From positions 9,017 to 73,016 of the forward strand of contig JAUYBG010000005.1 of the NCBI GenBank assembly GCA_030693205.1: DNA of 64,000 bases. The letters are read 5' to 3'. This DNA comes from a bacterium. Lineage in GTDB: Bacteria; Patescibacteriota; Minisyncoccia; JAHIHE01. Shown in pieces: positions 30,763-54,266 of this stretch. Within the stretch, counting starts at the first letter, position 1; each line of letters begins with the position of its first letter. The translations under genes were made by a program, and so were the position numbers. A model generated the notes under the pieces. That model had not been told where the DNA came from. It saw only the letters and a program-made list of their open reading frames with translations, and searched no databases.

Positions 30763-31302
30763 ATGGCGGGAAAAATCAAAAAAATATCTTCAGAAGTAGA
30801 TTATAAGACCCCATATTTTAAAATTGTTAAAAGCGGTTTTTTGATTCCTGGGCAAAAAAAGCCGATTTATTGGTATCTTTTGAAACGCGCAAGTTACGCC
30901 GCGATTTTAGCGAAGGAGGGAAATTATTTTTATATGGTGGAGACATATAGGTTTGCGGTGGAGAAAAAAATGCTGGAATTTCCGGCAGGAGTTATTGAAA
31001 AAGGAGAAACGCCGCGGGTGGCGGCAAAAAGAGAGCTTGGCGAAGAAGCCGGCATTGTTGCCAAAAAATTTACTTTTTTGGGCTGGTATTACGCTTTTGT
31101 CGGAATGTCAGATAGCAAATCTTATGTTTTTTTGGCTGAAAATTTAAGTTTTACAAAACAAAAACTGGACGAAAGCGAATATGGTATGAAAGTGAAAAAA
31201 ATAAAAATTTCCGATGTGGAAAATTTAATAAGAAAAGGAAAAATCCGGGGCGAGCATAGTATAAATAGTTTTTATATTTATAAGCTAAAAAATAAAAAAT
31301 AA
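30763..31302 (+). CDS. NUDIX hydrolase
   Basis: Nudix box FPAGVIEKGETPRVAAKRELGEEAGI. Confidence 0.8.
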   Translation: MAGKIKKISSEVDYKTPYFKIVKSGFLIPGQKKPIYWYLLKRASYAAILAKEGNYFYMVETYRFAVEKKMLEFPAGVIEKGETPRVAAKRELGEEAGIVAKKFTFLGWYYAFVGMSDSKSYVFLAENLSFTKQKLDESEYGMKVKKIKISDVENLIRKGKIRGEHSINSFYIYKLKNKK

Positions 31303-41850: not shown

Positions 41851-44586
41851 ATGGCGGGGATCAATGTCAATAAAAACAAGGATAGTATGGAAATTATAAC
41901 TTGCTCTGTTTGCGGCGGCTTGGGAATTGTTGTCGCTCGTCAATCGGAAGCAAAAAGCCAAACGTGCCAAGAATGCGGCGGCGCGGGAGTGTGGCTCGCA
42001 AAAGGCAATGAAAAATATTTTTGGCAGCCGCAAAACAAAATAGGTTCGTCCTTATCCCGATGGCTAAAGACCGTTGTAGCTGTTGCTATTAAGATTTTGG
42101 CGATTTTTTTTATCATTTCTTCTTATGACAAAGCGATTGTTTTTCTGGAATCTTCCGATGATATTTTTGCTTTGTTCACTCAAAAAGGCGTCGAACCTTT
42201 TCTTTTTTGGGCATCAACGCTTGTTTTGGTTTACTGGATCTATCTTTTGCGGGCGGCGGCAAAAAAAGAGCGCGAACAAGATTTTGATATTTTTAAAATA
42301 GTATTCGGTGTGTTTGATAAAGCGGAAACAAATCGGGGAAGCGGGTTCAATATTGAGCCGCTTTTGGATTCTTCGGCCAAGGGAAAAATTTACGAAGCCG
42401 GAGCGATTGCCGAAGGATCAAAAAACCAGGTTGGCGTTTGGCATTTACTGAAAGCGCTGTTTAGTGATCGGGATATTGAACGGATCATTGCTATGCTTGA
42501 AGTCAGCCAAAAAGAAATGATCGAATTAATAAATAATAAGATCAAAGAAACCGCCGAGCCGATCTTAGGAGAGCAAAAAGTTCAATTCAATGCCGATATT
42601 AAGAAAGCCGTGATCGGTTCTTTGCTGGAAGCGGTAAAAATGGGTAGGAAAGATATTGATAAAATAAGCCTTTTTTCTTCGGTGGCGATAAATCTTAAGG
42701 ATGTTAATTTTTTCTTGCAGGGATCGGGGATCAACGCGGAGAATCTTCATACGGGAGTATTGTGGTCTCAAAAGGAAAATAACGGAGGATTCTTACAAAA
42801 GTTATTTATAAAAAAAGGGCTCAGAAGAGTAACGATCAAGCATCGGATAATGAATAGCGCGTGGACAGCCAGGCCGACGCCGACTCTTGATAAATTCAGC
42901 TACGACATAACCGATTATGCGGCGGCGGGGGTTTTGCCTCCGATCGTGGGCAGAGAAAAGGAGATCAGCGAAGTAATGAGAATTTTGGAGAGAAACAGCA
43001 AGAATAATGTGCTTTTGATCGGCGAGACAGGGAGCGGCAGAAGATCTATCGTTAACGCGATCGGCAGATTAATGGCTAGTGATAAATGTTTGTCAAAACT
43101 TAGAGACAAGCGTCTGGTTTCTCTTGATGCTTCATTGGTAGTTTCCGGAGTGACGGCAGGCGGTGAGCTTGAGGAGAGAATACAAGATATTTTGCAGGAA
43201 ATCCAATTGGCGGGGAATATTATTTTTTTTATTCCCGATATTCATAATTTAGCCGACTCGGGCGCTGAGCATGGTTTTGATGTTTCGGAAATCCTAACTC
43301 CGGTTTTCAGACAAAGCTATTTACAGGTAATTGGTACGACAACTTTTTTTGATTATCACCAGACGATCGAGAAGCGCGGCGATTTTGCCGATACTTTTGA
43401 TATAGTTAAGGTGGAAGAGGTTACTCCCGATGTTGCTTTGGAAATTTTATCAAGGGAATCATACGGAATAGAGGAAAAAGAAGAAGTTCGGTTTACTTTT
43501 AATGCTCTTAAAAAAGCGGTTGATCTTTCCCAAAGGTACATTTTTAACAAGCTTTTGCCCGCCAAGGCTGTGGATCTATTAAGCGAGGCTGCGGTTATGG
43601 TGAAAGTGCGATCGGGAAAAGATTCTTTGGTAAAGAGCGAAGACATCATGGCTTTGGTGACCGAAAAGACAGGGGTGCCGGTTATTGATATTACAAGCAA
43701 GGAAGCGAATATATTAAATAATCTTGAATCAGAGATTCACAAAAGAATGATCGGCCAGGATTTGGCGGTTAAAGCGATTTCCGAAGCGATCAAAAGAATG
43801 CGAGTGGGTTTGAAGAACGAGAAAAAACCTATGGGTGTGTTTCTTTTTTTGGGGCCGACGGGAGTGGGGAAAACAGAGCTGGCTAAGACTCTGGCTGAGG
43901 TTTATTTCGGTTCGGAAAAATTAATGGTGCGCCTGGATATGAGCGAGTTTCAGTCGGTGCAAAGCATTGAAAAACTGATCGGTTCTCCGGACGGAGTTGT
44001 CAGCGGCCAGTTGACCGAGGCGGTAAAAAAGAAGCCGTTTTCGCTTGTCTTGCTTGATGAGTTTGAAAAAGCGCATCCCAATGTTCTAAATTTATTTTTG
44101 CAGGTTTTTGACGATGGCCGCCTTACGGACAGTTTGGGCCGGTTGGTGGATTTTACCAATACTATTATTATTGCCACATCCAATGCCGGATCGAAGATCA
44201 TTCAGGAGCGGCTAAGGGAAGGAAAAACCATACCGGAATTCCAGGCGGAATTCGAAAAGAATTTATTGGAATATTTCAAACCGGAACTTTTGAATCGTTT
44301 TAACGCGCAGATCATATTCAAGACTTTATCCGAGGACGATATTACTCAGATCGCGAAGCTGCAGATCAAGAATCTTTCCAAGCGCATGGAGAAGGCTCAG
44401 GGCATTGAAATAAAGATCACAGATGAGGCGGTGGCAAAAATTTCAAGAATAGGATATAATCCTTTTTTTGGCGCTCGTAATTTGCAGAGGGTGATCACAG
44501 AAAAGATCGAAAACGTTATTGCCGATAAGTTTTTGAAAGGGGAGATCAAGCGCGGACAGGTTTATACGGTTAAAGATATAGAATAA
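41851..44586 (+). CDS. Clp/Hsp100-family two-ring AAA+ ATPase (ClpC/ClpB-like) with N-terminal zinc ribbon and two TM segments
   Basis: N-terminus CSVCGG...CQECGG (Zn ribbon) then TM segments (VVAVAIKILAIFFIISSY, LFWASTLVLVYWIYLL); a Clp_N-like repeat; D1 with atypical Walker A GETGSGRRS (Lys replaced by Arg); D2 with canonical GPTGVGKTELAKTLA, sensor and ClpB_D2-small motifs. No IGF/LGF ClpP-docking loop noticed. Confidence 0.75.
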   Translation: MAGINVNKNKDSMEIITCSVCGGLGIVVARQSEAKSQTCQECGGAGVWLAKGNEKYFWQPQNKIGSSLSRWLKTVVAVAIKILAIFFIISSYDKAIVFLESSDDIFALFTQKGVEPFLFWASTLVLVYWIYLLRAAAKKEREQDFDIFKIVFGVFDKAETNRGSGFNIEPLLDSSAKGKIYEAGAIAEGSKNQVGVWHLLKALFSDRDIERIIAMLEVSQKEMIELINNKIKETAEPILGEQKVQFNADIKKAVIGSLLEAVKMGRKDIDKISLFSSVAINLKDVNFFLQGSGINAENLHTGVLWSQKENNGGFLQKLFIKKGLRRVTIKHRIMNSAWTARPTPTLDKFSYDITDYAAAGVLPPIVGREKEISEVMRILERNSKNNVLLIGETGSGRRSIVNAIGRLMASDKCLSKLRDKRLVSLDASLVVSGVTAGGELEERIQDILQEIQLAGNIIFFIPDIHNLADSGAEHGFDVSEILTPVFRQSYLQVIGTTTFFDYHQTIEKRGDFADTFDIVKVEEVTPDVALEILSRESYGIEEKEEVRFTFNALKKAVDLSQRYIFNKLLPAKAVDLLSEAAVMVKVRSGKDSLVKSEDIMALVTEKTGVPVIDITSKEANILNNLESEIHKRMIGQDLAVKAISEAIKRMRVGLKNEKKPMGVFLFLGPTGVGKTELAKTLAEVYFGSEKLMVRLDMSEFQSVQSIEKLIGSPDGVVSGQLTEAVKKKPFSLVLLDEFEKAHPNVLNLFLQVFDDGRLTDSLGRLVDFTNTIIIATSNAGSKIIQERLREGKTIPEFQAEFEKNLLEYFKPELLNRFNAQIIFKTLSEDDITQIAKLQIKNLSKRMEKAQGIEIKITDEAVAKISRIGYNPFFGARNLQRVITEKIENVIADKFLKGEIKRGQVYTVKDIE

Positions 44587-47595: not shown

Positions 47596-48026
47596 GGGTG
47601 GAGATGGCGGGAATTGAACCCGCGTCTAGAAAGAAAACCTTAAAATTATCTACTGATGTAGTCTGTTCGTTGTTTTTCGGATCTTTGGTTAGTGAACAAA
47701 CAAGAATACAAAGATCTTATGCTCGGTCTTTTCGGTGAAAGCTCGGAGCCGGGAGAATCCACCTATCCTAATTAATGACACCAGATAACCGACTATTAGG
47801 AGTTATCGGTCTGATGGGTCGTGAACCTTCAACTTGGCTTGTGGCCGAGTAATATTAGGCTACGGCGGCAGCAAAGCTAGGAACTGCAAAAGCTTGCGCT
47901 ACTGCAGACTTAACTTTACCAATAAGTGTTTTGGCACTTAAGTTTGATTCTAAAAGTTTTACGAGGTTTTAGAATACTCGATCAGCAATTTTAAGTTTCA
48001 GCTTCCTATCGAAGCCGGTCATCCCC
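47596..48026 (-). ncRNA. ssrA: tmRNA (SsrA)
   Basis: 5' end GGGGAUGACCGGCUUCGAUAGG (minus strand from 48026). tRNA-like 3' domain with T-arm CGGGTTCAATTCCCG and acceptor CAUCUCC-A-CC giving a G3:U70 pair (the Ala identity element). Internal tag ORF reading ...GCA GUU CCU AGC UUU GCU GCC GCC GUA GCC UAA (AVPSFAAAVA*). Located immediately downstream of smpB. Confidence 0.8.
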
Positions 48027-48045
48027 AAGCGCTGCGAACAAAGCG

Positions 48046-48495
48046 TCACTTTCCGCGCAAGGCTCGCTGGATATTTCTTTTGGATTCTCGTTCACCAATC
48101 GCCGCGCGCTTGTCGAACTGCTTCTTTCCGCGCGCTACAGCAAAGGAAACTTTAATTTTTCCTATTGTGTTAGTATATACCGAAAGTGGTATCAGTGTCA
48201 AGCCTTTTTCCTTGGATTCTCCAATTAAACGGTTGATCTGATTTTTATGGAGAAGGAGCTTTCTGGTGCGGGTCGGCTCGTAGTTCAGAGGCATATTTTT
48301 GGGCTGATAATGCGAAATATGGGCGTTTAAAAGAAAGGCTTCGCCGCCGATGATGACGACGTAAGCGCCTTTTAGGCTGATATGGCCCAGTCTCGCGGCT
48401 TTTACTTCATACCCGGCCAATACCAAACCAGCCTCGAATTTATCCAGGATCTCATAATCAAATGTCGCTCGTTTGTTGGTGGCTAGTGTTGGCAT
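48046..48495 (-). CDS. smpB: SsrA-binding protein SmpB
   Basis: ATFDYEILDKFEAGLVLAGYEVKAARLG...; basic C-terminal tail; adjacent to the tmRNA. Confidence 0.92.
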   Translation of the reverse strand: MPTLATNKRATFDYEILDKFEAGLVLAGYEVKAARLGHISLKGAYVVIIGGEAFLLNAHISHYQPKNMPLNYEPTRTRKLLLHKNQINRLIGESKEKGLTLIPLSVYTNTIGKIKVSFAVARGKKQFDKRAAIGERESKRNIQRALRGK

Positions 48496-49857: not shown

Positions 49858-49884
49858 TTGTTTAAGCGGCTATTTTTTGCAACG

Positions 49885-50208
49885 ATGACAGAATTTTTAG
49901 AAAAAAACATAAAAAAACTTAAGAAAATTGCCGGATCCTCATTATTCGCGGCTCTGCCTCTAGAACCGGTTACGATGAAGCCGATGGCAAACTTGATCGA
50001 TTCGCTTCTTAATACTATTTTGGCAATAGTTGCCGGCCTTGGAATTTTGTTTTTGATCATCGGCGGCATAAGATACATCAGAAGCTGGGGAGATTCCGAC
50101 CAAATGGAAAAGGCGAAAAAAATGATCACTTATGTGATTATAGGTTTGGTAGTGATTTTAGTGTCTTATTCCGTGATAGCTACTTTGGATACGATAATTA
50201 ACGGATAG
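49885..50208 (+). CDS. TrbC/VirB2-family pilin-like protein
   Basis: Signal region then LNTILAIVAGLGILFLIIGGIRYIRSWGDSDQMEKAKKMITYVIIGLVVILVSYSVIA, the canonical CPR T4SS-pilin-like double-TM motif. Start set to the ATG at 49885; the track start 49858 is TTG. Confidence 0.7.
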   Translation: MTEFLEKNIKKLKKIAGSSLFAALPLEPVTMKPMANLIDSLLNTILAIVAGLGILFLIIGGIRYIRSWGDSDQMEKAKKMITYVIIGLVVILVSYSVIATLDTIING

Positions 50209-50303: not shown

Positions 50304-50567
50304 GTGGATAATGGGGGAAACGGAAGAAAAGTAGCATATTGTCCTCATCATGAAATGATATTATGCAATGAATTTATGGCAAAAAAAGGGTGTCTTAAAA
50401 ACTGCAATCATGTAATGACGGTAAAAAAGAAGTATATACATAAATTAAAAAAATATACAAGAACGACGGATATAGACACAAAACTGCGTGATCTGCAAAA
50501 TACCGTAAATAATGGCATAAAAGTGGATTATGATTATTGGAATGCAGTTCTGTATAGCAGGCATTGA
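50304..50567 (+). CDS. Small Cys/His-rich hypothetical protein
   Basis: GTG start; CPHHEMILCNEF...CLKNCNH pattern suggests metal binding; no family recognised. Confidence 0.3.
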   Translation: MDNGGNGRKVAYCPHHEMILCNEFMAKKGCLKNCNHVMTVKKKYIHKLKKYTRTTDIDTKLRDLQNTVNNGIKVDYDYWNAVLYSRH

Positions 50568-50702: not shown

Positions 50703-53700
50703 ATGAAAAATAAAGCGGAACAAAAGCAAAAATCTGAAGTGGCGCTTCGGGAAGAAGCGATTTTGAAATTTTGGGAGGAAAACAAGATTTTTCAAAAATC
50801 CGTCAATCAGCGTTCGGGATCAAAAGAATTCGTTTTTTATGAAGGTCCGCCGACTGCCAACGGGAAACCCGGAATTCATCATGTTTTGGCGAGGTCTTTC
50901 AAAGACATAGTCTGCCGTTATAAAACAATGCGGGGATATAGGGTTGAGCGGAAAGCCGGCTGGGATACGCATGGGCTTCCGGTAGAGCTTCAGGTGGAAA
51001 AAGAATTAAAAATTTCTTCTAAGCCTGAAATAGAAAAATATGGCATTGAAGAATTTAATAAGAAATGCAAAGCGTCGGTTTGGGAATACAAAGACGAGTG
51101 GGAACGCCTGACCAAGCGCATCGCTTTCTGGCTGGACTTGGAGCATCCTTACATAACTTATAGCAACGAGTATATTGAATCAGTTTGGTGGATTCTGTCG
51201 GAAATTTACAAAAAAGGCTTGCTTTACGAAGGCCACAAAGTTGTGCCGTATTGTTCGCGCTGCGGCACGGGGCTCTCGAGCCATGAAGTGGCGCAAGGAT
51301 ATAAAAAAATACCGGAAAAATCCGTATATGTGAAATTCAAAGTCAAAAGCCGGCTGGGCACGGGGATTGTCGTCGTCAACGAAAAAGGCGAGATATTGTT
51401 GGGGAAAAGGATCAAAACCGGTCAATGGACTTTGCCCGGAGGAAAAGTGGAAAAAGGCGAAACATACGAAGAAACGATCGTACGCGAGACCAAAGAAGAA
51501 ACAGGGATTGATATCGAGATCGTGAAAACTTTGGGATTGGCCGAAAGCATAATTGACGGCGCGCATTGGCGGTATCAGAATTTCATCGGCCGCGCAAAAG
51601 GCGGGGAATTGAAAGACGAAAAAGGAAAGATCGAAGGCTGGAAATGGATCGCGCCGGATAAATTGCCGGAAAATATTTACGAGCCGAGCGGAAAAACCTT
51701 GAAGCTTTTTTTGGCTGATAAAAAAGGGATTATAAGTGATGTCTTGGTGCATGAAAATGATTCCACATATTTTTTGGTTTGGACCACTACGCCGTGGACT
51801 TTGCCGGGAAATGTGGCACTGGCAGTAGGAAAGGATATTGATTATGTAATAATTAAGTATTTTGGCAATAAATCGTCCAGAAGTATCATTGGGAGCGGGA
51901 ATAGAAAAGAAGGATTAACTGAATCTACAATATTAGCTCCAGGTAATTATATAATAGCCAAAGATATTTTACAAAAAAACTTGGAATCAAATGCGGGGCT
52001 TATAGAAATCAGATATTTGTTCGGTAACATTGATGTGTTTAATGAGAATTTAAGGAAGCATCCTGCGCATCAAGATCTTGACGGTTTATTAAAAGCATAT
52101 AATTTTGATGTTATTAAAGGATCTGAACTTGTCGGTTTGGAATACAAACAATTATTTGATTTTGTAAAACCGGACCCGCTTTCTCCGTCAGTAGGCGGAT
52201 TCAGCGAGGCAAGTAAGCCTGCATTTCGAGTCGTGGCTGGGGATTTTGTGACCACGCAAGACGGTTCGGGCATAGTTCATATTGCGCCGGCGTTTGGCGA
52301 GGATGATATGCGAGTGGCAAAAGAAAATGATTTGCCGGTTTTGATGACTGTGAATTTGCAAGGCAAATTTATTCCGGAAATTACTCCATGGGCGGGAAAA
52401 TATGTGGCCAGAGAAGAAACCAATAAAGAGATTATTACCGAATTGGACAAGAGAAAAGTTTTATTCAAAACCGAAGATATAGAGCATGATTATCCTTTTT
52501 GCTGGCGATGCAATACGAAACTGATCTATTACGCCAAAAAATCTTGGTTTATTAAGATGTCTGATCCGAAAATCAAGAAAGCTTTGATCGAAAATAACGA
52601 AAAAATAAACTGGATACCGGAACATATCAAGAAAGGCCGGATGGGCGAGTGGCTCCGCGAAATAAAAGATTGGGCACTGAGCCGCGAGCGCTATTGGGGA
52701 ACGCCGCTGCCGATTTGGAAATGCGCCAAATGCGGAGATGATAAAATAATCGGTTCGATCGCGGAACTGGAAAAATTTGGCGGTAAGAAACTGGAAGACT
52801 TGCACAGACCGTTCATAGACAAAGTTATTTTTAAGTGCGATAAATGCGGCGGCGAAATGAAGAGGATCACGGACGTGATTGATTGCTGGTTTGATTCCGG
52901 CTCAATGCCTTTCAGTCAATGGCATTATCCTTTTGAAAACAAAGAATTAGTCGACCCTTCGACAGGCTCAGGGCAGGCTAAAGGCAAGAAATTTCCGGCT
53001 GATTATATTTCCGAAGCGATCGATCAGACAAGAGGGTGGTTCTATACTTTGCTGGCGATTGCCACGCTTTTGGGAAAAAGCGCGCCTTACAAGAATGTCA
53101 TAACTTACGGCCATATTCTGGACGCGAAAGGCCAAAAAATGAGCAAATCCAAAGGCAATGTCGTCAGTCCATGGGAAGTGGCTGATAAATATGGCATAGA
53201 TATTTTGCGCTGGTATTTTTATACGGTCGGCGGACCCGGAGAGCCGAAGCGTTTTGATTTCAAGGATCTTAATGAAGTGCAAAATAAATTTTATCGCACT
53301 TTATGGAATTCATATCAATTTTTTAAGACATACGCGGGCAAAGCCAAAAGCCAAAAGCCCACAGCCAAAAATCAAAATTTATTGGATAAGTGGATTGTTT
53401 CGCGGCTCAATGAAACGATTTTTGAAACGACAAAACTTTTGGATGATTATGATATTATTCGCTCGGCTCGTCTTATCGGCGATTTTACGGATGATCTGTC
53501 GAATTGGTATATCCGCCGCTCACGCGACAGGATGCGGGTTGAGGAATCCGCGGCCCTTTGGACGCTTTTGGCGGTCTTGAGCGAATTGACAAAGCTTGCC
53601 GCGCCTTTCGTGCCGTTTATTTCAGAAGAAATTTATCGAGATATTAAAACAGGCGGTTCTCCGGAAAGCATTCATCTTTCGGATTGGCCGAAAGCCGATG

Positions 53701-54266
53701 AAAAATTAATTGATAAGAAATTAAACGAGGAAATGAAATTAGTCCGTGAAATTGTTACTTTGGGTTTGGCCGCGCGCGCGAAATCAAAAATTAAAGTCAG
53801 GCAGCCTTTGGCCCTGCTGGAAGTTCAGGGAACGAAAGAAAAAATAAAAGCCGACTTGTTGGAATTAGTAAACGATGAATTGAATGTTAAAAAAGTAGCT
53901 TTTGTTTCTGAGGTTAGCGCAAAGAGCGGTTGGATATCGGAAACTAATGGCCGGATTGCAATTGCGCTTGATACAAAAATCACCGATGAACTTAAAGAAG
54001 AGGGAGTTGTTCGCGATATTGCGCGGCATATCCAGACAATGCGCAAAGACTTGGGTTTGACCAAGGAAGATTTGATCGAAGTTTTTTACGGAAAAAACGG
54101 AAGTGCGGGGAAAATTTTCGCCAATGCCAAATGGCAAAAATATATCAAAGAAAAAACCATTACGAAAAATATCGATAAATATGAAGAAGGCGGAAAATAC
54201 GATATGGAAAAAGATTTGGAGATCGAAGGCGAAAAAATTAAATTCGCGGTTAAGAAAGTGAAATAA
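50703..54266 (+). CDS. ileS: Isoleucyl-tRNA synthetase carrying an inserted NUDIX hydrolase domain (about aa 217-348)
   Basis: Class I signatures PPTANGKPGIHH (HIGH region) and KMSKSKGN; editing-domain hallmark LVWTTTPWTLPGN; anticodon-binding C-terminal region. Between SVYVKFKVKS and YFLVWTTTPWTLP sits a roughly 130-aa insert with a perfect Nudix box GGKVEKGETYEETIVRETKEETGI. Confidence 0.9.
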   Translation: MKNKAEQKQKSEVALREEAILKFWEENKIFQKSVNQRSGSKEFVFYEGPPTANGKPGIHHVLARSFKDIVCRYKTMRGYRVERKAGWDTHGLPVELQVEKELKISSKPEIEKYGIEEFNKKCKASVWEYKDEWERLTKRIAFWLDLEHPYITYSNEYIESVWWILSEIYKKGLLYEGHKVVPYCSRCGTGLSSHEVAQGYKKIPEKSVYVKFKVKSRLGTGIVVVNEKGEILLGKRIKTGQWTLPGGKVEKGETYEETIVRETKEETGIDIEIVKTLGLAESIIDGAHWRYQNFIGRAKGGELKDEKGKIEGWKWIAPDKLPENIYEPSGKTLKLFLADKKGIISDVLVHENDSTYFLVWTTTPWTLPGNVALAVGKDIDYVIIKYFGNKSSRSIIGSGNRKEGLTESTILAPGNYIIAKDILQKNLESNAGLIEIRYLFGNIDVFNENLRKHPAHQDLDGLLKAYNFDVIKGSELVGLEYKQLFDFVKPDPLSPSVGGFSEASKPAFRVVAGDFVTTQDGSGIVHIAPAFGEDDMRVAKENDLPVLMTVNLQGKFIPEITPWAGKYVAREETNKEIITELDKRKVLFKTEDIEHDYPFCWRCNTKLIYYAKKSWFIKMSDPKIKKALIENNEKINWIPEHIKKGRMGEWLREIKDWALSRERYWGTPLPIWKCAKCGDDKIIGSIAELEKFGGKKLEDLHRPFIDKVIFKCDKCGGEMKRITDVIDCWFDSGSMPFSQWHYPFENKELVDPSTGSGQAKGKKFPADYISEAIDQTRGWFYTLLAIATLLGKSAPYKNVITYGHILDAKGQKMSKSKGNVVSPWEVADKYGIDILRWYFYTVGGPGEPKRFDFKDLNEVQNKFYRTLWNSYQFFKTYAGKAKSQKPTAKNQNLLDKWIVSRLNETIFETTKLLDDYDIIRSARLIGDFTDDLSNWYIRRSRDRMRVEESAALWTLLAVLSELTKLAAPFVPFISEEIYRDIKTGGSPESIHLSDWPKADEKLIDKKLNEEMKLVREIVTLGLAARAKSKIKVRQPLALLEVQGTKEKIKADLLELVNDELNVKKVAFVSEVSAKSGWISETNGRIAIALDTKITDELKEEGVVRDIARHIQTMRKDLGLTKEDLIEVFYGKNGSAGKIFANAKWQKYIKEKTITKNIDKYEEGGKYDMEKDLEIEGEKIKFAVKKVK
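51351..51746 (+). other. NUDIX hydrolase domain inserted in-frame within ileS
   Basis: Nudix box Gx5Ex7REUxEExGU fully satisfied (G-KVEKG-E-TYEETIV-RE-T-K-EE-T-G-I); flanked on both sides by conserved IleRS segments in the same frame. Confidence 0.8.

What the first reader, a model, noticed from the sequence alone, without database searches (positions are those of the whole stretch)
50703..54266. Isoleucyl-tRNA synthetase with a complete NUDIX hydrolase domain inserted ahead of the CP1 editing domain
A roughly 130-aa in-frame insert (51351-51746) lies between the conserved IleRS segments ...SVYVKFKVKS and YFLVWTTTPWTLPGN. In canonical IleRS these are separated by only about 15-20 residues. 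The insert carries a perfect Nudix box, GGKVEKGETYEETIVRETKEETGI, with all catalytic Glu residues, so it looks like a functional pyrophosphohydrolase module and not junk. Aminoacyl-tRNA synthetases make Ap4A and related dinucleoside polyphosphates as side products, and Nudix enzymes hydrolyse them. A physically fused aaRS-Nudix could self-clear such products, or aminoacyl-adenylate-like or mis-activated intermediates. I am not aware of this architecture being described. The rest of the enzyme looks intact (HIGH-like PGIHH, KMSKS, editing and anticodon-binding regions).
Basis: partly seen in the sequence, partly recalled or inferred. Interest (0 to 1): 0.82.

Follow-up and report, generated by a model that had tools for sequence, protein, structure and literature searches.

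The report
NUDIX enzyme nested inside isoleucyl-tRNA synthetase
The isoleucyl-tRNA synthetase of an uncultivated ultra-small (Patescibacteria/CPR-like) bacterium has a complete nucleotide-pyrophosphate-cleaving NUDIX enzyme, kept under purifying selection, built into a hairpin of its proofreading domain. I found no paper describing this architecture; it recurs in many related lineages and, independently, in a valyl-tRNA synthetase.

Summary
ORF 50703-54266 (+) encodes a 1187-aa type-2 IleRS: TIGR00392 scores 914 bits, the class I signature is GIHH, and KMSKS, the editing motifs and the zinc knuckles are intact. A complete NUDIX domain (residues 216-340, Pfam E 7e-24, Nudix box intact) replaces the turn of the first CP1 β-hairpin. 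That gap is 12-34 residues in 73 relatives and 148 here.

It is not an assembly artefact. Independent metagenome contigs carry the same insert collinearly, and its dN/dS is 0.066.

The architecture recurs in at least 12 clusters at 50% identity (Patescibacteria, Dojkabacteria, Gracilibacteria), always at this hairpin and always with REx2EE kept. Orthologous syntenic loci carry a different NUDIX type (33% identity against 83% backbone identity) or none, so the module is swappable and dispensable for aminoacylation. A UGA=Trp organism has a ValRS with two NUDIX domains at the homologous hairpin.

Modelled alone, the domain gives pLDDT 91.6. It resembles small MutT/ApnA-hydrolase NUDIX enzymes (4kyx, MutT1, Ndx1); the substrate is unknown.

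The best reading is a bifunctional synthetase with an autonomous nucleotide or dinucleoside-polyphosphate clean-up lobe. The link to Ap4A is an inference. No paper describes the architecture, and the database entries are named only "class I tRNA ligase family protein". This is a new variant of a known kind.

The parts
50703..54266 (+). ileS gene: 1187-aa type-2 isoleucyl-tRNA synthetase with a nested NUDIX domain (identical to NCBI MDP3056999.1)
   Evidence: ORF; Pfam and NCBIfam; exact database match; the AF2 model best matches Priestia megaterium IleRS2 structures, TM 0.78
50871..50882 (+). Class I signature motif G57-I-H-H60: the non-canonical GXHH form of HXGH found in some IleRS2
   Evidence: Read from the sequence. 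G57, H59 and H60 are invariant in 78 homologues. GXHH in IleRS2 is described in PMC10485003
51321..51347 (+). First β-strand of the CP1 hairpin (SVYVKFKVK), which runs directly into the first NUDIX strand
   Evidence: Alignments. In the AF2 model, strand 200-214 is followed by NUDIX strand 216-225 with no linker
51348..51722 (+). Inserted NUDIX hydrolase domain, residues 216-340 ('type A')
   Evidence: PF00293 E 7e-24 in the protein, 3e-25 alone. AF2 of the domain alone: pLDDT 91.6, pTM 0.85. Foldseek: 4kyx, MutT1, Ndx1 and others. dN/dS 0.066 against the orthologue in L001
51441..51509 (+). Nudix box G247-I269, GKVEKGETYEETIVRETKEETGI, with catalytic R261, E262, E265 and E266
   Evidence: Read from the sequence. 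REx2EE is kept in all 22 embedded NUDIX domains examined
51723..51764 (+). Flexible linker, residues 341-354 (DKKGIISDVLVHEN), returning to CP1; it may retain part of the native hairpin
   Evidence: pLDDT below 50 for residues 339-352 in the full-length model and for 347-354 in the domain model. Compared with the hairpin GQKIGNFITDEN of relatives that lack the NUDIX; this part is inference
51780..51800 (+). Thr-rich editing peptide WTTTPWT (residues 360-366) of CP1
   Evidence: W360, T362, T363, P364 and W365 are invariant in 78 IleRS
52263..52307 (+). CP1 editing-site motif GSGIVHIAPAFGEDD (residues 521-535)
   Evidence: G521, G523, H526, A528, G532 and D535 are invariant. Their role in editing is from established knowledge of IleRS
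53136..53150 (+). KMSKS loop (residues 812-816)
   Evidence: K812, M813, S814, K815 invariant
53385..53813 (+). Anticodon-binding domain (Anticodon_1, residues 895-1037)
   Evidence: Pfam E 4e-34
53919..54260 (+). C-terminal DUF5915 domain, typical of type-2 IleRS (residues 1073-1186)
   Evidence: Pfam E 4e-21

Best explanation
The gene encodes a bifunctional polypeptide. The body is the housekeeping type-2 IleRS. It activates Ile, charges tRNA-Ile and edits Val-tRNA-Ile in CP1; this is inferred from intact motifs.

A complete small MutT/ApnA-hydrolase-like NUDIX enzyme has been grafted into the turn of the first β-hairpin of CP1. It is joined rigidly at its N-terminal end and through a floppy linker of about 14 residues at its C-terminal end, so it forms an autonomous lobe on the editing domain. 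Its REx2EE metal-binding helix is intact and under strong purifying selection, so it is most likely catalytically active. It would hydrolyse a pyrophosphate bond in small nucleotide substrates.

My best guess for the substrate is dinucleoside or adenylylated polyphosphates (Ap4A, Ap3A, Ap4N). Synthetases make these when an aminoacyl-adenylate reacts with a nucleotide instead of tRNA. The alternative is aberrant (d)NTPs. Either way, nucleotide clean-up would be tied 1:1 to a constitutive synthetase that is itself a source of such by-products.

The lobe is not needed for aminoacylation or editing as such.

Shown: the architecture, fold, conservation, selection, recurrence and dispensability. Inferred: catalytic activity, substrate class and coupling to IleRS chemistry.
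For: 1. Complete NUDIX with an intact box. Confident autonomous fold: pLDDT 91.6.
2. dN/dS 0.066 in the NUDIX, against 0.04-0.15 in the IleRS parts. Within each type the NUDIX is more conserved than the backbone: 94% against 86%.
3. REx2EE is retained in all 22 embedded copies, from at least 12 clusters at 50% identity.
4. Nearest solved structures: 4kyx, M. smegmatis MutT1 and Rv2985 (a diadenosine polyphosphatase), T. thermophilus Ap6A hydrolase Ndx1, Aquifex Ap4A hydrolase, DR1025 and NUDT15.
5. aaRS synthesise Ap3-5N, and Nudix enzymes (RppH/NudH, MutT1, Nudt2) degrade them (PMC7705103).
6. The link to class Ia synthetases recurs. It is seen in IleRS of Patescibacteria, Dojkabacteria and Gracilibacteria. 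A code-4 ValRS has two NUDIX domains at the homologous hairpin, YYLKYPL|...|LLVATSRPET. A LeuRS-like protein has three NUDIX stretches by Pfam.
7. One close free homologue is encoded between pheS-pheT and serS, overlapping serS by 4 nt.
8. Orthologues at 78-82% backbone identity lack the insert, so IleRS function does not depend on it.
Against: - No biochemical data exist, and substrate class cannot be read from sequence.
- All specific NCBIfam NUDIX models (MutT, RppH, NudC and others) score below their cut-offs.
- The Tyr about 17 residues after the box that is typical of ApnA hydrolases is absent; the nearest Tyr is at +22.
- Eight gene neighbourhoods of free homologues are mostly about nucleotide metabolism or repair (pyr genes, a PRTase, a purB-like lyase, Maf, UvrB, MGMT). 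Only one is next to aaRS genes.
- IleRS is not among the strongest Ap4A producers (own knowledge).
- Ap4A diffuses, so physical fusion is not obviously required.
- The orientation of the NUDIX active site relative to the synthetic and editing sites could not be assessed. No coordinates or PAE were available, and the NUDIX scores only pLDDT 50-76 in the full-length model.
- The window also encodes a separate free NUDIX at 30763-31302.
Confidence: 0.45

Rival explanations
1. Pure piggy-back. The NUDIX is an ordinary house-cleaning nucleotide pyrophosphohydrolase (MutT-like sanitation of NTPs/dNTPs, or salvage) with no mechanistic connection to IleRS. In tiny streamlined genomes it has simply been lodged in a permissive surface loop of an essential, constitutively expressed protein, which ensures co-expression and saves a promoter and RBS.
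For: - The insert equals a whole free-standing NUDIX of about 145 aa, including its C-terminal helix.
- Neighbourhoods of free homologues are dominated by nucleotide metabolism.
- The domain is gained, lost or swapped among orthologous loci with 76-83% identical backbones.
- An unrelated hydrolase, His_Phos_1, is inserted at another loop in about 35 of the 120 best IleRS hits.
- NUDIX and His_Phos_1 co-occur no more often than chance would give: 3 of 9 full-length NUDIX-IleRS, against about 30% overall.
Against: - NUDIX domains land at the homologous CP1 hairpin in two paralogous synthetases from different phyla (IleRS in CPR, ValRS in a UGA=Trp organism), and again in a LeuRS-like protein.
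- Two or more NUDIX lineages occupy the same IleRS site.
- Such repetition is easier to explain if the pairing itself is selected. The site could, however, simply be the most permissive loop.
Confidence: 0.3
2. RNA-directed activity. The NUDIX lobe acts in cis on RNA bound to the synthetase. Examples are RppH/NudC-like removal of 5'-triphosphate, NAD or Np4A caps from tRNA-Ile precursors or other RNAs, taking advantage of its position on the CP1 domain beside the acceptor stem.
For: - Among the best NCBIfam hits for the insert are RppH models (46 bits), all below cut-off.
- Foldseek lists E. coli RppH bound to Ap4A.
- The insert sits on the domain that handles the tRNA acceptor end (established knowledge).
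- One free homologue lies near a LigT-like 2'-5' RNA ligase gene.
Against: - RppH models are below cut-off and score no better than the MutT models.
- Bacterial tRNAs normally receive a 5'-monophosphate from RNase P (established knowledge).
- Close orthologues do without the domain.
- No RNA-binding extension is present.
Confidence: 0.1
3. Extra proofreading site. The NUDIX hydrolyses mis-activated aminoacyl-adenylates (Val-AMP) released from the synthetic site, acting as a third sieve.
For: The location on the editing domain. The same site is used in ValRS, another editing enzyme.
Against: - NUDIX chemistry targets pyrophosphate linkages. Aminoacyl-adenylates are acyl-phosphate anhydrides, and the enzymes known to hydrolyse them are HIT proteins or the synthetases themselves (own knowledge).
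- The canonical editing motifs are intact, so nothing needs replacing.
- The domain is dispensable in close relatives.
Confidence: 0.05
4. Non-catalytic module. The NUDIX fold serves as a nucleotide-binding sensor or a structural or interaction domain that modulates IleRS, without hydrolysing anything.
For: Catalytically dead NUDIX proteins that bind Ap4A exist (NUDT21/CFIm25; PMC7705103). Some embedded copies have degenerate box positions: P0255 and P0258 lack the GX5E spacing.
Against: R-E-x2-E-E is kept in all 22 embedded copies across very divergent hosts. dN/dS is 0.066. The box of the window copy is complete.
Confidence: 0.05
5. Assembly or annotation artefact: a chimeric join of an ileS gene and a NUDIX gene.
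For: The source is a single MAG contig, and read coverage was not available.
Against: - The insert is in frame at both junctions.
- Independent contigs from other samples and assemblers have the same junctions. L001 is collinear at 89-97% nt identity without indels.
- The architecture is found in more than 20 sequences from JGI, Logan, ENA and NCBI, including a Dojkabacteria contig of 888,748 bp.
- GC content of the insert is 0.47, against 0.42 for the gene.
Confidence: 0.01

Closest known systems
Type-2 isoleucyl-tRNA synthetase with GXHH signature (Priestia megaterium IleRS2 structures 8c8u/8c8v/8c8w; PMC10485003)
   Same: Best sequence match (826 bits) and best fold match (TM 0.78). Same domain order, zinc knuckles, CP1 motifs, KMSKS and C-terminal DUF5915. 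The window's GIHH corresponds to the non-canonical GXHH motif described for some IleRS2.
   Different: PmIleRS2 goes straight from ...VKFKVKNR to DNEYFLGWTTTPW. The window protein has about 135 extra residues there, forming a NUDIX domain plus linker. It also has private short inserts in CP1 (residues 391-415, 434-468, 492-504) and after the zinc module (752-759).
Small free-standing MutT-like NUDIX hydrolases of the 4kyx type (Rickettsia felis 'ADP-ribose pyrophosphatase MutT'; metagenomic P0121, P0124 and others, 138-156 aa)
   Same: 34-45% identity over the whole domain, including the C-terminal W-x-W...D-x-LP-x-N-x-[FY]-x-P motif and final helix. Same fold: TM 0.77, rmsd about 2 Å.
   Different: These are independent genes; here the whole enzyme is nested in another enzyme. 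None of them has an experimentally established substrate that I could find.
Nudix ApnA hydrolases (T. thermophilus Ndx1 1vc8, Aquifex aq_158 3i7u, M. tuberculosis Rv2985/MutT1 9cxx, E. coli RppH)
   Same: High-ranking structural neighbours. Their substrates are made by aaRS (PMC7705103), which provides a rationale for the fusion.
   Different: 22-30% identity only. The diagnostic Tyr of ApnA hydrolases is not at the expected spacing. Activity is untested.
Mycobacterial MutT1 (Nudix N-terminal domain + histidine-phosphatase C-terminal domain; PMC11784022)
   Same: It combines the two domain families (NUDIX and His_Phos_1) that are found inserted in Patescibacteria IleRS, sometimes in the same polypeptide (P0008, P0242, P0335). 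The closest free homologue of the window's NUDIX lies immediately downstream of a His_Phos_1 gene.
   Different: In MutT1 the two domains are in tandem. In IleRS they sit in different loops, and the window protein has no His_Phos_1. The IleRS-inserted His_Phos_1 is closest to PspA/CobC, not to the MutT1 C-terminal domain. NUDIX and His_Phos_1 are not enriched together (3 of 9 against about 30%).
NCBIfam NF040702 'isoleucine--tRNA ligase, N-acetyltransferase domain-containing' (ileS_w_GNAT)
   Same: A curated precedent for an IleRS carrying an extra small-molecule enzyme domain.
   Different: The domain family is different (GNAT). The window protein scores 338 bits against a cut-off of 1999, so it is not a member.
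CP1 editing domain as a nested insertion in class Ia synthetases (surveyed in PMC13114784)
   Same: Class I aaRS are classic hosts of nested domains. Here a domain is nested inside the already nested CP1.
   Different: That survey and two IleRS evolution papers do not mention NUDIX. CP1 acts on the synthetase's own product, whereas the role of the NUDIX is unknown.

Membership tests
Isoleucyl-tRNA synthetase (TIGR00392 ileS equivalog) | Whole-protein HMM score above the curated cut-off | tested here: met
   913.8 bits against a cut-off of 621.4; valS, leuS and metG models are all below their cut-offs
Isoleucyl-tRNA synthetase (class Ia) | Class I signature motifs: HXGH (or the IleRS2 variant GXHH) and KMSKS | tested here: met
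   G57-I-H-H60 and K812-M-S-K-S816, invariant in 78 homologues. GXHH is accepted as functional in IleRS2 (PMC10485003)
Isoleucyl-tRNA synthetase (class Ia) | CP1 editing domain with the Thr-rich peptide and the conserved His/Asp motif | tested here: met
   WTTTPWT at 360-366 and GSGIVHIAPAFGEDD at 521-535, with invariant columns
Isoleucyl-tRNA synthetase (class Ia) | Aminoacylation of tRNA-Ile and hydrolysis of Val-tRNA-Ile | not testable with these tools
   Requires enzymology
Type-2 (IleRS2) subclass | Type-2 C-terminal organisation (DUF5915/ARD3, no C-terminal zinc-binding domain) and closest similarity to IleRS2 structures | tested here: met
   DUF5915 E 4e-21. Best PDB matches are PmIleRS2, T. 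thermophilus and eukaryotic IleRS; IleRS1 enzymes are far weaker
MupA/MupB acquired mupirocin-resistance IleRS (NF000257, NF000258) | Score above the 1900-bit exception cut-off | tested here: not met
   816 and 802 bits
ileS_w_GNAT (NF040702) | Score above the 1999-bit cut-off; GNAT domain present | tested here: not met
   338 bits; no acetyltransferase domain in Pfam
NUDIX hydrolase superfamily (PF00293) | Pfam score above the gathering threshold | tested here: met
   84.7 bits in the protein and 89.1 bits alone, against a cut-off of 21.1
NUDIX hydrolase superfamily (PF00293) | Nudix box GX5EX7REUXEEXGU with the catalytic Glu residues | tested here: met
   G247...E253...R261 E262 T263 K264 E265 E266 T267 G268 I269. 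The only deviation is Thr at the first U
NUDIX hydrolase superfamily (PF00293) | α/β/α Nudix fold | tested here: met
   AF2 pLDDT 91.6. Foldseek probability 1.00, TM 0.77-0.80 to many solved NUDIX enzymes
NUDIX hydrolase superfamily (PF00293) | Metal-dependent pyrophosphohydrolase activity | not testable with these tools
   Requires an enzyme assay
MutT 8-oxo-dGTP diphosphatase (TIGR00586) | Score above the curated cut-off | tested here: not met
   46.3 bits against 97.9
RppH RNA pyrophosphohydrolase (PRK00714 models) | Score above the curated cut-off | tested here: not met
   40-47 bits against cut-offs of 116-259
Nudix ApnA hydrolases | Conserved Tyr about 17 residues downstream of the Nudix box, contacting the adenine of the leaving nucleotide (PMC5389931 section 17; spacing from own knowledge) | tested here: inconclusive
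   No Tyr at +16 to +18; the nearest is Y291 at +22. Structural neighbours include ApnA hydrolases
NADH pyrophosphatase (NudC) / ADP-ribose pyrophosphatase / CoA pyrophosphatase subfamilies | SQPWPFPxS motif / Pro about 16 residues after the box / upstream NuCoA motif (own knowledge of Dunn et al. 1999; discussed in PMC5389931) | tested here: not met
   None of these motifs occurs in residues 216-340, and there is no Pro between 270 and 300 (sequence). NudC, NudE and CoA models are far below cut-off
Intein or other self-splicing insert | Hint-domain blocks, a C/S/T at the insert's N-terminus, and a terminal HN followed by C/S/T | tested here: not met
   No Hint or intein Pfam hit. The insert starts RLGTG and ends ...HEND-S

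The most novel reading that the evidence does not exclude
NUDIX domains, and in other lineages His_Phos_1 and HAD phosphohydrolases, nested in class Ia synthetases constitute a third catalytic site that is functionally coupled to adenylate chemistry or to the acceptor end of the bound tRNA. On this reading the lobe would destroy adenylylated by-products (ApnN), or would decap or repair RNA ends, in cis. The pairing would have evolved convergently at the same CP1 hairpin in IleRS (CPR) and ValRS (a UGA=Trp lineage), with NUDIX cassettes exchanged between ileS alleles by recombination.
Probability: 0.22. Interest if true: 0.8.

Novelty: new variant of a known kind. Interest (0 to 1): 0.62.

Why it matters
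Aminoacyl-tRNA synthetases are among the best-studied enzymes. Their accessory domains (editing domains, EMAPII, WHEP, GST and others) have repeatedly revealed new biology. A whole, selected-for pyrophosphohydrolase nested in the proofreading domain has not been described in the literature I could search. It recurs in many Patescibacteria IleRS and, independently, in a ValRS.

If the lobe destroys Ap4A-type by-products at source, it would be the first hard-wired link between synthesis and degradation of these alarmones. It would also give a clean experimental handle, by comparing wild type, ΔNUDIX and Nudix-box mutants, on how much ApnN a class I synthetase makes in vivo.

If it is only a piggy-back, it still marks the CP1 hairpin as a naturally validated permissive site for domain insertion. 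It would also document cassette-like exchange of enzyme modules inside an essential gene in streamlined genomes.

There is a practical consequence too. These proteins are currently named only "class I tRNA ligase family protein" in NCBI records, so automated reconstructions may miss the ileS (and NUDIX) function in such MAGs.

Tried and rejected
1. Mixing free NUDIX sequences into the full-length alignment to deepen the MSA (A3). MAFFT scattered them along the IleRS, so A3 was discarded. A4 (IleRS only) and A5 (NUDIX only) were used instead.
2. The word-indexed homologue search with the 180-aa junction did not even return the known fused proteins. It was useful only for finding free NUDIX relatives. 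The exhaustive profile search was needed to find further fusions.
3. I looked for a repeated or mobile DNA element behind the short private inserts of the window protein. There are no repeats in the window, and one shared 12-mer at 44393 is a chance match in clpB.
4. I tested whether the IleRS-inserted His_Phos_1 resembles the MutT1 C-terminal domain. It does not; the closest solved relatives are PspA and CobC. The His_Phos_1 gene next to the closest free NUDIX is only 27-38% identical to the IleRS inserts. NUDIX and His_Phos_1 inserts are not enriched together.
5. Intein or self-splicing element: no supporting features.
6. A regex-based measure of hairpin length gave spurious long values. It was replaced by an alignment-based count.
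7. A Foldseek search of afdb50 for the same architecture in UniProt was unavailable.
8. The orientation of the NUDIX pocket relative to the synthetic and editing sites could not be evaluated, because the tools return no coordinates or PAE.
9. Literature searches for IleRS/aaRS combined with Nudix, His-phosphatase or domain insertion in CPR found no description.

Full report
**Observation.**
The ORF at 50703..54266 (+) exists as described and encodes 1187 aa. Pfam places tRNA-synt_1 across residues 20-840 (E 1e-122), a NUDIX domain at 216-334 (E 7e-24; 3e-25 for the excised segment), Anticodon_1 at 895-1037 and DUF5915 at 1073-1186. NCBIfam's ileS equivalog scores 913.8 bits against a cut-off of 621.4. 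All ValRS, LeuRS and MetRS models fall below their cut-offs.

The Nudix box is G247-I269, GKVEKGETYEETIVRETKEETGI. It fits GX5EX7REUXEEXGU, with Thr at the first hydrophobic position.

In an alignment of 78 IleRS, the distance between the equivalents of K211 and W360 is 12-34 residues (median 13) in the 73 proteins without the insert. It is 148 or 157 in the five that have it. In the closest solved enzyme (Priestia megaterium IleRS2, 8c8w) the flanks are contiguous: VKFKVKNR|DNEYFLGWTTTPWTLP. The insert therefore replaces the turn of the first β-hairpin of the CP1 editing domain.

**Not an artefact.**
The identical protein is in NCBI as MDP3056999.1, on a 124-kb MAG contig. A contig from an unrelated JGI metagenome (L001, protein P0002) has the same gene in the same synteny: SmpB, a GT4 glycosyltransferase, ileS, recO and a DUF11 protein. 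It is collinear with the window at 89-97% nucleotide identity in 90-nt bins across both junctions, with no indel between 51153 and 51848. GC content of the insert is 0.47, close to the gene's 0.42.

**The host enzyme looks fully functional.**
That form is known from a subset of IleRS2, where it confers mupirocin hyper-resistance with little cost to catalysis (PMC10485003).
- KMSKS (812-816), the four CxxC zinc knuckles, the Thr-rich editing peptide WTTTPWT (360-366) and the GSGIVHIAPAFGEDD editing motif (521-535) are invariant or nearly so in 78 homologues.
- An AlphaFold2 model of the whole protein has mean pLDDT 83.7 and pTM 0.78, with the IleRS parts mostly above 90. It superposes best on PmIleRS2 (TM 0.78 normalised to the target).
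- No second class I synthetase gene is in the window.

**The insert is a complete, autonomous NUDIX enzyme.**
In the full-length model the NUDIX region is only moderately confident (pLDDT 50-76), because just five sequences cover it. It nevertheless shows the expected strand-helix pattern. Strand 200-214 of CP1 runs straight into the first NUDIX strand (216-225), and residues 339-352 form a low-confidence linker back to CP1.

Modelled alone with 54 homologues, the domain reaches pLDDT 91.6 and pTM 0.85. Foldseek against the PDB returns the following at TM 0.75-0.80:
- Rickettsia felis 'MutT' 4kyx, which is also the best sequence hit (E 6e-17);
- Mycobacterium smegmatis MutT1 and M. tuberculosis Rv2985, a diadenosine polyphosphatase;
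- the Ap6A hydrolase Ndx1 and the Aquifex Ap4A hydrolase;
- B. pseudomallei MutT, NUDT15, DR1025 and NUDX1.

Free-standing metagenomic homologues of 138-156 aa are 41-45% identical over their whole length, including the C-terminal W-x-W...LP-x-N-x-[FY]-x-P motif and last helix. An entire small NUDIX gene has therefore been nested. All specific NCBIfam NUDIX models (MutT, RppH, NudC and others) score below their cut-offs. The subfamily motifs for NADH, ADP-ribose and CoA substrates are absent, and the ApnA-type Tyr is not at its usual spacing. The substrate cannot be assigned from sequence.

**Selection.**
Between the window and L001, Nei-Gojobori dN/dS is 0.066 for the NUDIX. It is 0.041 for the N-terminal catalytic half, 0.15 for the rest of CP1 and 0.13 for the C-terminal part. 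Within a NUDIX type, amino-acid identity is higher in the insert than in the backbone: 94% against 86%, and 88% against 82%. The R-E-x2-E-E core is retained in all 22 embedded copies I examined.

**Distribution and evolution.**
Among the 120 best IleRS homologues, five carry the NUDIX. An exhaustive profile search of 1.84 billion representative proteins with the junction region found further IleRS-NUDIX representatives. These are P0241, P0242, P0252, P0255, P0258, P0335 and P0337, plus the fragments P0259, P0265 and P0363. In each, the insert lies at the same hairpin, just before WTTTPWT.

The records are labelled Patescibacteria group (MCX6807234.1, MDA3815477.1) and Candidatus Dojkabacteria (WKZ23590.1, on an 888,748-bp contig). 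All are named only 'class I tRNA ligase family protein'. A scan of GTDB species representatives found the same architecture in four Candidatus Gracilibacteria genomes and two other CPR genomes; it reads through when translated with code 25. The hosts are divergent: N-terminal halves are 43-57% identical, and most have a canonical HYGH signature.

Within the window's own narrow clade (backbones 76-86% identical, same synteny) three states coexist:
- 'type A' NUDIX (window, P0002, P0003);
- 'type B' NUDIX (P0004, P0008), only 33% identical to type A;
- no NUDIX, just an 11-12-residue hairpin (P0005, P0006, P0007, P0009, P0010).

Type B is 56-63% identical to the NUDIX of the distant hosts P0241 and P0242, whose N-terminal halves are only 46-49% identical to P0004. 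The best non-self match of type A is a free-standing NUDIX (P0121, 101 bits), ahead of the best match to another embedded type (82 bits). Between the window and the type-B orthologue, dN in the insert is 0.66, against 0.07-0.13 elsewhere.

So the module has been exchanged, gained or lost within orthologous ileS genes, probably through recombination across the highly conserved flanks. This mechanism is inferred. It also shows that the domain is dispensable for IleRS function.

**Beyond IleRS.**
The same search turned up a ValRS (P0268 fragment; full-length P0395, 1155 aa). It has two tandem NUDIX domains at the homologous hairpin, between YYLKYPL and LLVATSRPET. It is encoded on a 26% GC contig that translates to the recorded protein only with UGA=Trp. 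The search also found a LeuRS-like protein (P0288) with three NUDIX stretches by Pfam and a HAD domain between the catalytic and anticodon-binding parts.

About 35 of the 120 best IleRS hits carry a histidine-phosphatase (PF00300) domain inserted between the two distal zinc knuckles. Three NUDIX-bearing IleRS have one as well (P0008, P0242, P0335). In P0335 it sits at a different position, between the catalytic and anticodon-binding domains. The co-occurrence (3 of 9 full-length proteins) is no higher than the background of about 30%.

**Functional clues from free homologues.**
Eight gene neighbourhoods were read.
- P0124 lies between pheS-pheT-GATase and serS, overlapping serS by 4 nt.
- P0121, the closest relative, lies in UvrB-GNAT-PnuC-His_Phos_1-NUDIX, with the phosphatase stop codon abutting the NUDIX start.
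- P0122 and P0133 lie among pyrimidine-biosynthesis, PRTase and Maf genes.
- P0131 lies beside a purB-like lyase.
- P0125 lies among three NUDIX genes and AhpC.
- P0136 lies near LigT and MGMT.
- P0143 is in an archaeal context, with a HIT gene nearby.

The common theme is nucleotide metabolism and house-cleaning. A link to aaRS genes appears only once.

**Interpretation.**
The data establish a bifunctional polypeptide: an intact IleRS2 carrying an autonomous NUDIX lobe, strongly constrained and almost certainly catalytic, on its editing domain. What the lobe hydrolyses is inferred.

I favour small nucleotide pyrophosphates, and within these the dinucleoside or adenylylated polyphosphates. The reasons are these:
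- Synthetases make such compounds and Nudix enzymes are known to degrade them (PMC7705103).
- ApnA hydrolases are prominent among the structural neighbours.
- NUDIX domains have been captured repeatedly by class Ia synthetases, twice at the same hairpin.

I give this 0.45. The main rival (0.30) is a house-cleaning NUDIX that merely rides in a permissive loop of an essential protein in a streamlined genome. That reading fits the heterogeneous neighbourhoods, the gain, loss and swap pattern, and the frequent insertion of an unrelated phosphatase elsewhere in these IleRS.

Action on RNA or tRNA ends (0.10), hydrolysis of mis-activated adenylates (0.05, chemically unlikely for a NUDIX), a non-catalytic role (0.05) and an artefact (0.01) are less likely.

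**Novelty.**
Searches of 8 million full texts found no description. The terms covered IleRS or aaRS combined with Nudix, fusion or insertion in CPR, and histidine phosphatase. The same holds for targeted reading of the Nudix-clan review, two IleRS evolution papers and a 2026 survey of domain insertions. NCBIfam does have a curated model for an IleRS with a GNAT domain (NF040702), so extra enzyme domains in IleRS are not unprecedented. Both components are well-known families. I therefore classify this as a new variant of a known kind: real, recurrent and convergent, but with its function still open.

**Limits.**
- I had no coordinates or PAE, so the geometry of the NUDIX pocket relative to the IleRS sites is unknown.
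- I had no whole genomes, so I could not check whether the fused gene is the only ileS, or whether free ApnA hydrolases are missing.
- The inference of several independent acquisitions rests on pairwise scores, not on a resolved phylogeny.

Noticed in passing
Not in the window; P0008, P0009, P0017, P0019, P0020 and others (alignment A1, columns ~795-1020): About 35 of the 120 best IleRS homologues, mostly Patescibacteria (e.g. Nealsonbacteria), carry a histidine-phosphatase (PF00300, PspA/CobC-like) domain of about 190 aa. It is inserted between the two distal CxxC zinc knuckles of IleRS. In P0335 it sits instead between the catalytic and anticodon-binding domains. I found no literature on this.
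   Followed up: partly
L090:6001-9468 (protein P0395; fragment P0268): A complete ValRS (1155 aa) with two tandem NUDIX domains inserted at the hairpin homologous to the IleRS site (YYLKYPL|...|LLVATSRPET). It lies on a 26% GC contig. The gene has 29 in-frame TGA codons and matches the recorded protein only with UGA=Trp (table 4).
   Followed up: partly
Protein P0288 (1268 aa; no locus fetched): A LeuRS-like protein (leuS_bact, 289 bits, C-terminal half only). Three NUDIX stretches by Pfam and a HAD_2 domain lie between the KMSKS region and the anticodon-binding domain. The N-terminal ~200 aa have no family match in the scans run.
   Followed up: no
L086:1815-4082: The closest free-standing homologue of the window's NUDIX (P0121) sits in a tight gene row: GNAT, PnuC-like NMN/nicotinamide-riboside transporter, His_Phos_1, NUDIX. 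GNAT, His_Phos_1 and NUDIX are the three small-enzyme families known to be embedded in IleRS. This may be a coincidence of common domains, or a lead towards NAD/nucleotide salvage.
   Followed up: partly
L083:725-6754: Another close free homologue (P0124) is encoded between pheS-pheT-GATase and serS, with a 4-nt overlap with serS.
   Followed up: no
window 30763-31302 (+): A separate free-standing NUDIX gene (179 aa, PF00293 E 1e-12) of a different subfamily. The embedded NUDIX is therefore not the organism's only one.
   Followed up: partly
window 51873-51947, 52002-52106, 52176-52214, 52956-52979: The window IleRS has private short in-frame inserts that its closest relatives lack: residues 391-415, 434-468, 492-504 (PLSPSVGGFSEAS, GC 0.59) and 752-759 (PSTGSGQA, GC 0.67). 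Two of them (391-415 and 492-504) coincide with the low-pLDDT segments 391-408 and 493-503 of the model. Close relatives have their own different private inserts at other positions. No repeats of these sequences occur in the window.
   Followed up: partly
window 50871-50882: The class I signature is GIHH, the non-canonical GXHH motif associated with mupirocin hyper-resistance in IleRS2. Most other NUDIX-bearing IleRS have a canonical HYGH.
   Followed up: yes
window 47596-48495: A tmRNA gene (47596-48026, minus strand; tag peptide AKTLIGKVKSAVAQAFAVPSFAAAVA) lies next to smpB (48046-48495, minus strand), upstream of the GT4 - pilin-like - ileS - recO block. The same SmpB-GT4-ileS-recO-DUF11 synteny is seen in L001 and L002.
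   Followed up: partly
window 49858-50208 (+) and 50304-50567 (+): Two small ORFs lie directly upstream of ileS. One is a 116-aa T4SS-pilin/TrbC-like protein (PF18895, E 1e-11). The other is an 87-aa Cys/His-rich ORF with no family match.
   Followed up: no
NCBI records MDP3056999.1, MCX6807234.1, WKZ23590.1, MDA3815477.1: All NUDIX-bearing IleRS found in NCBI are named only 'class I tRNA ligase family protein', although they score above the ileS equivalog cut-off. Automated metabolic reconstructions of these MAGs may therefore report ileS as missing.
   Followed up: no
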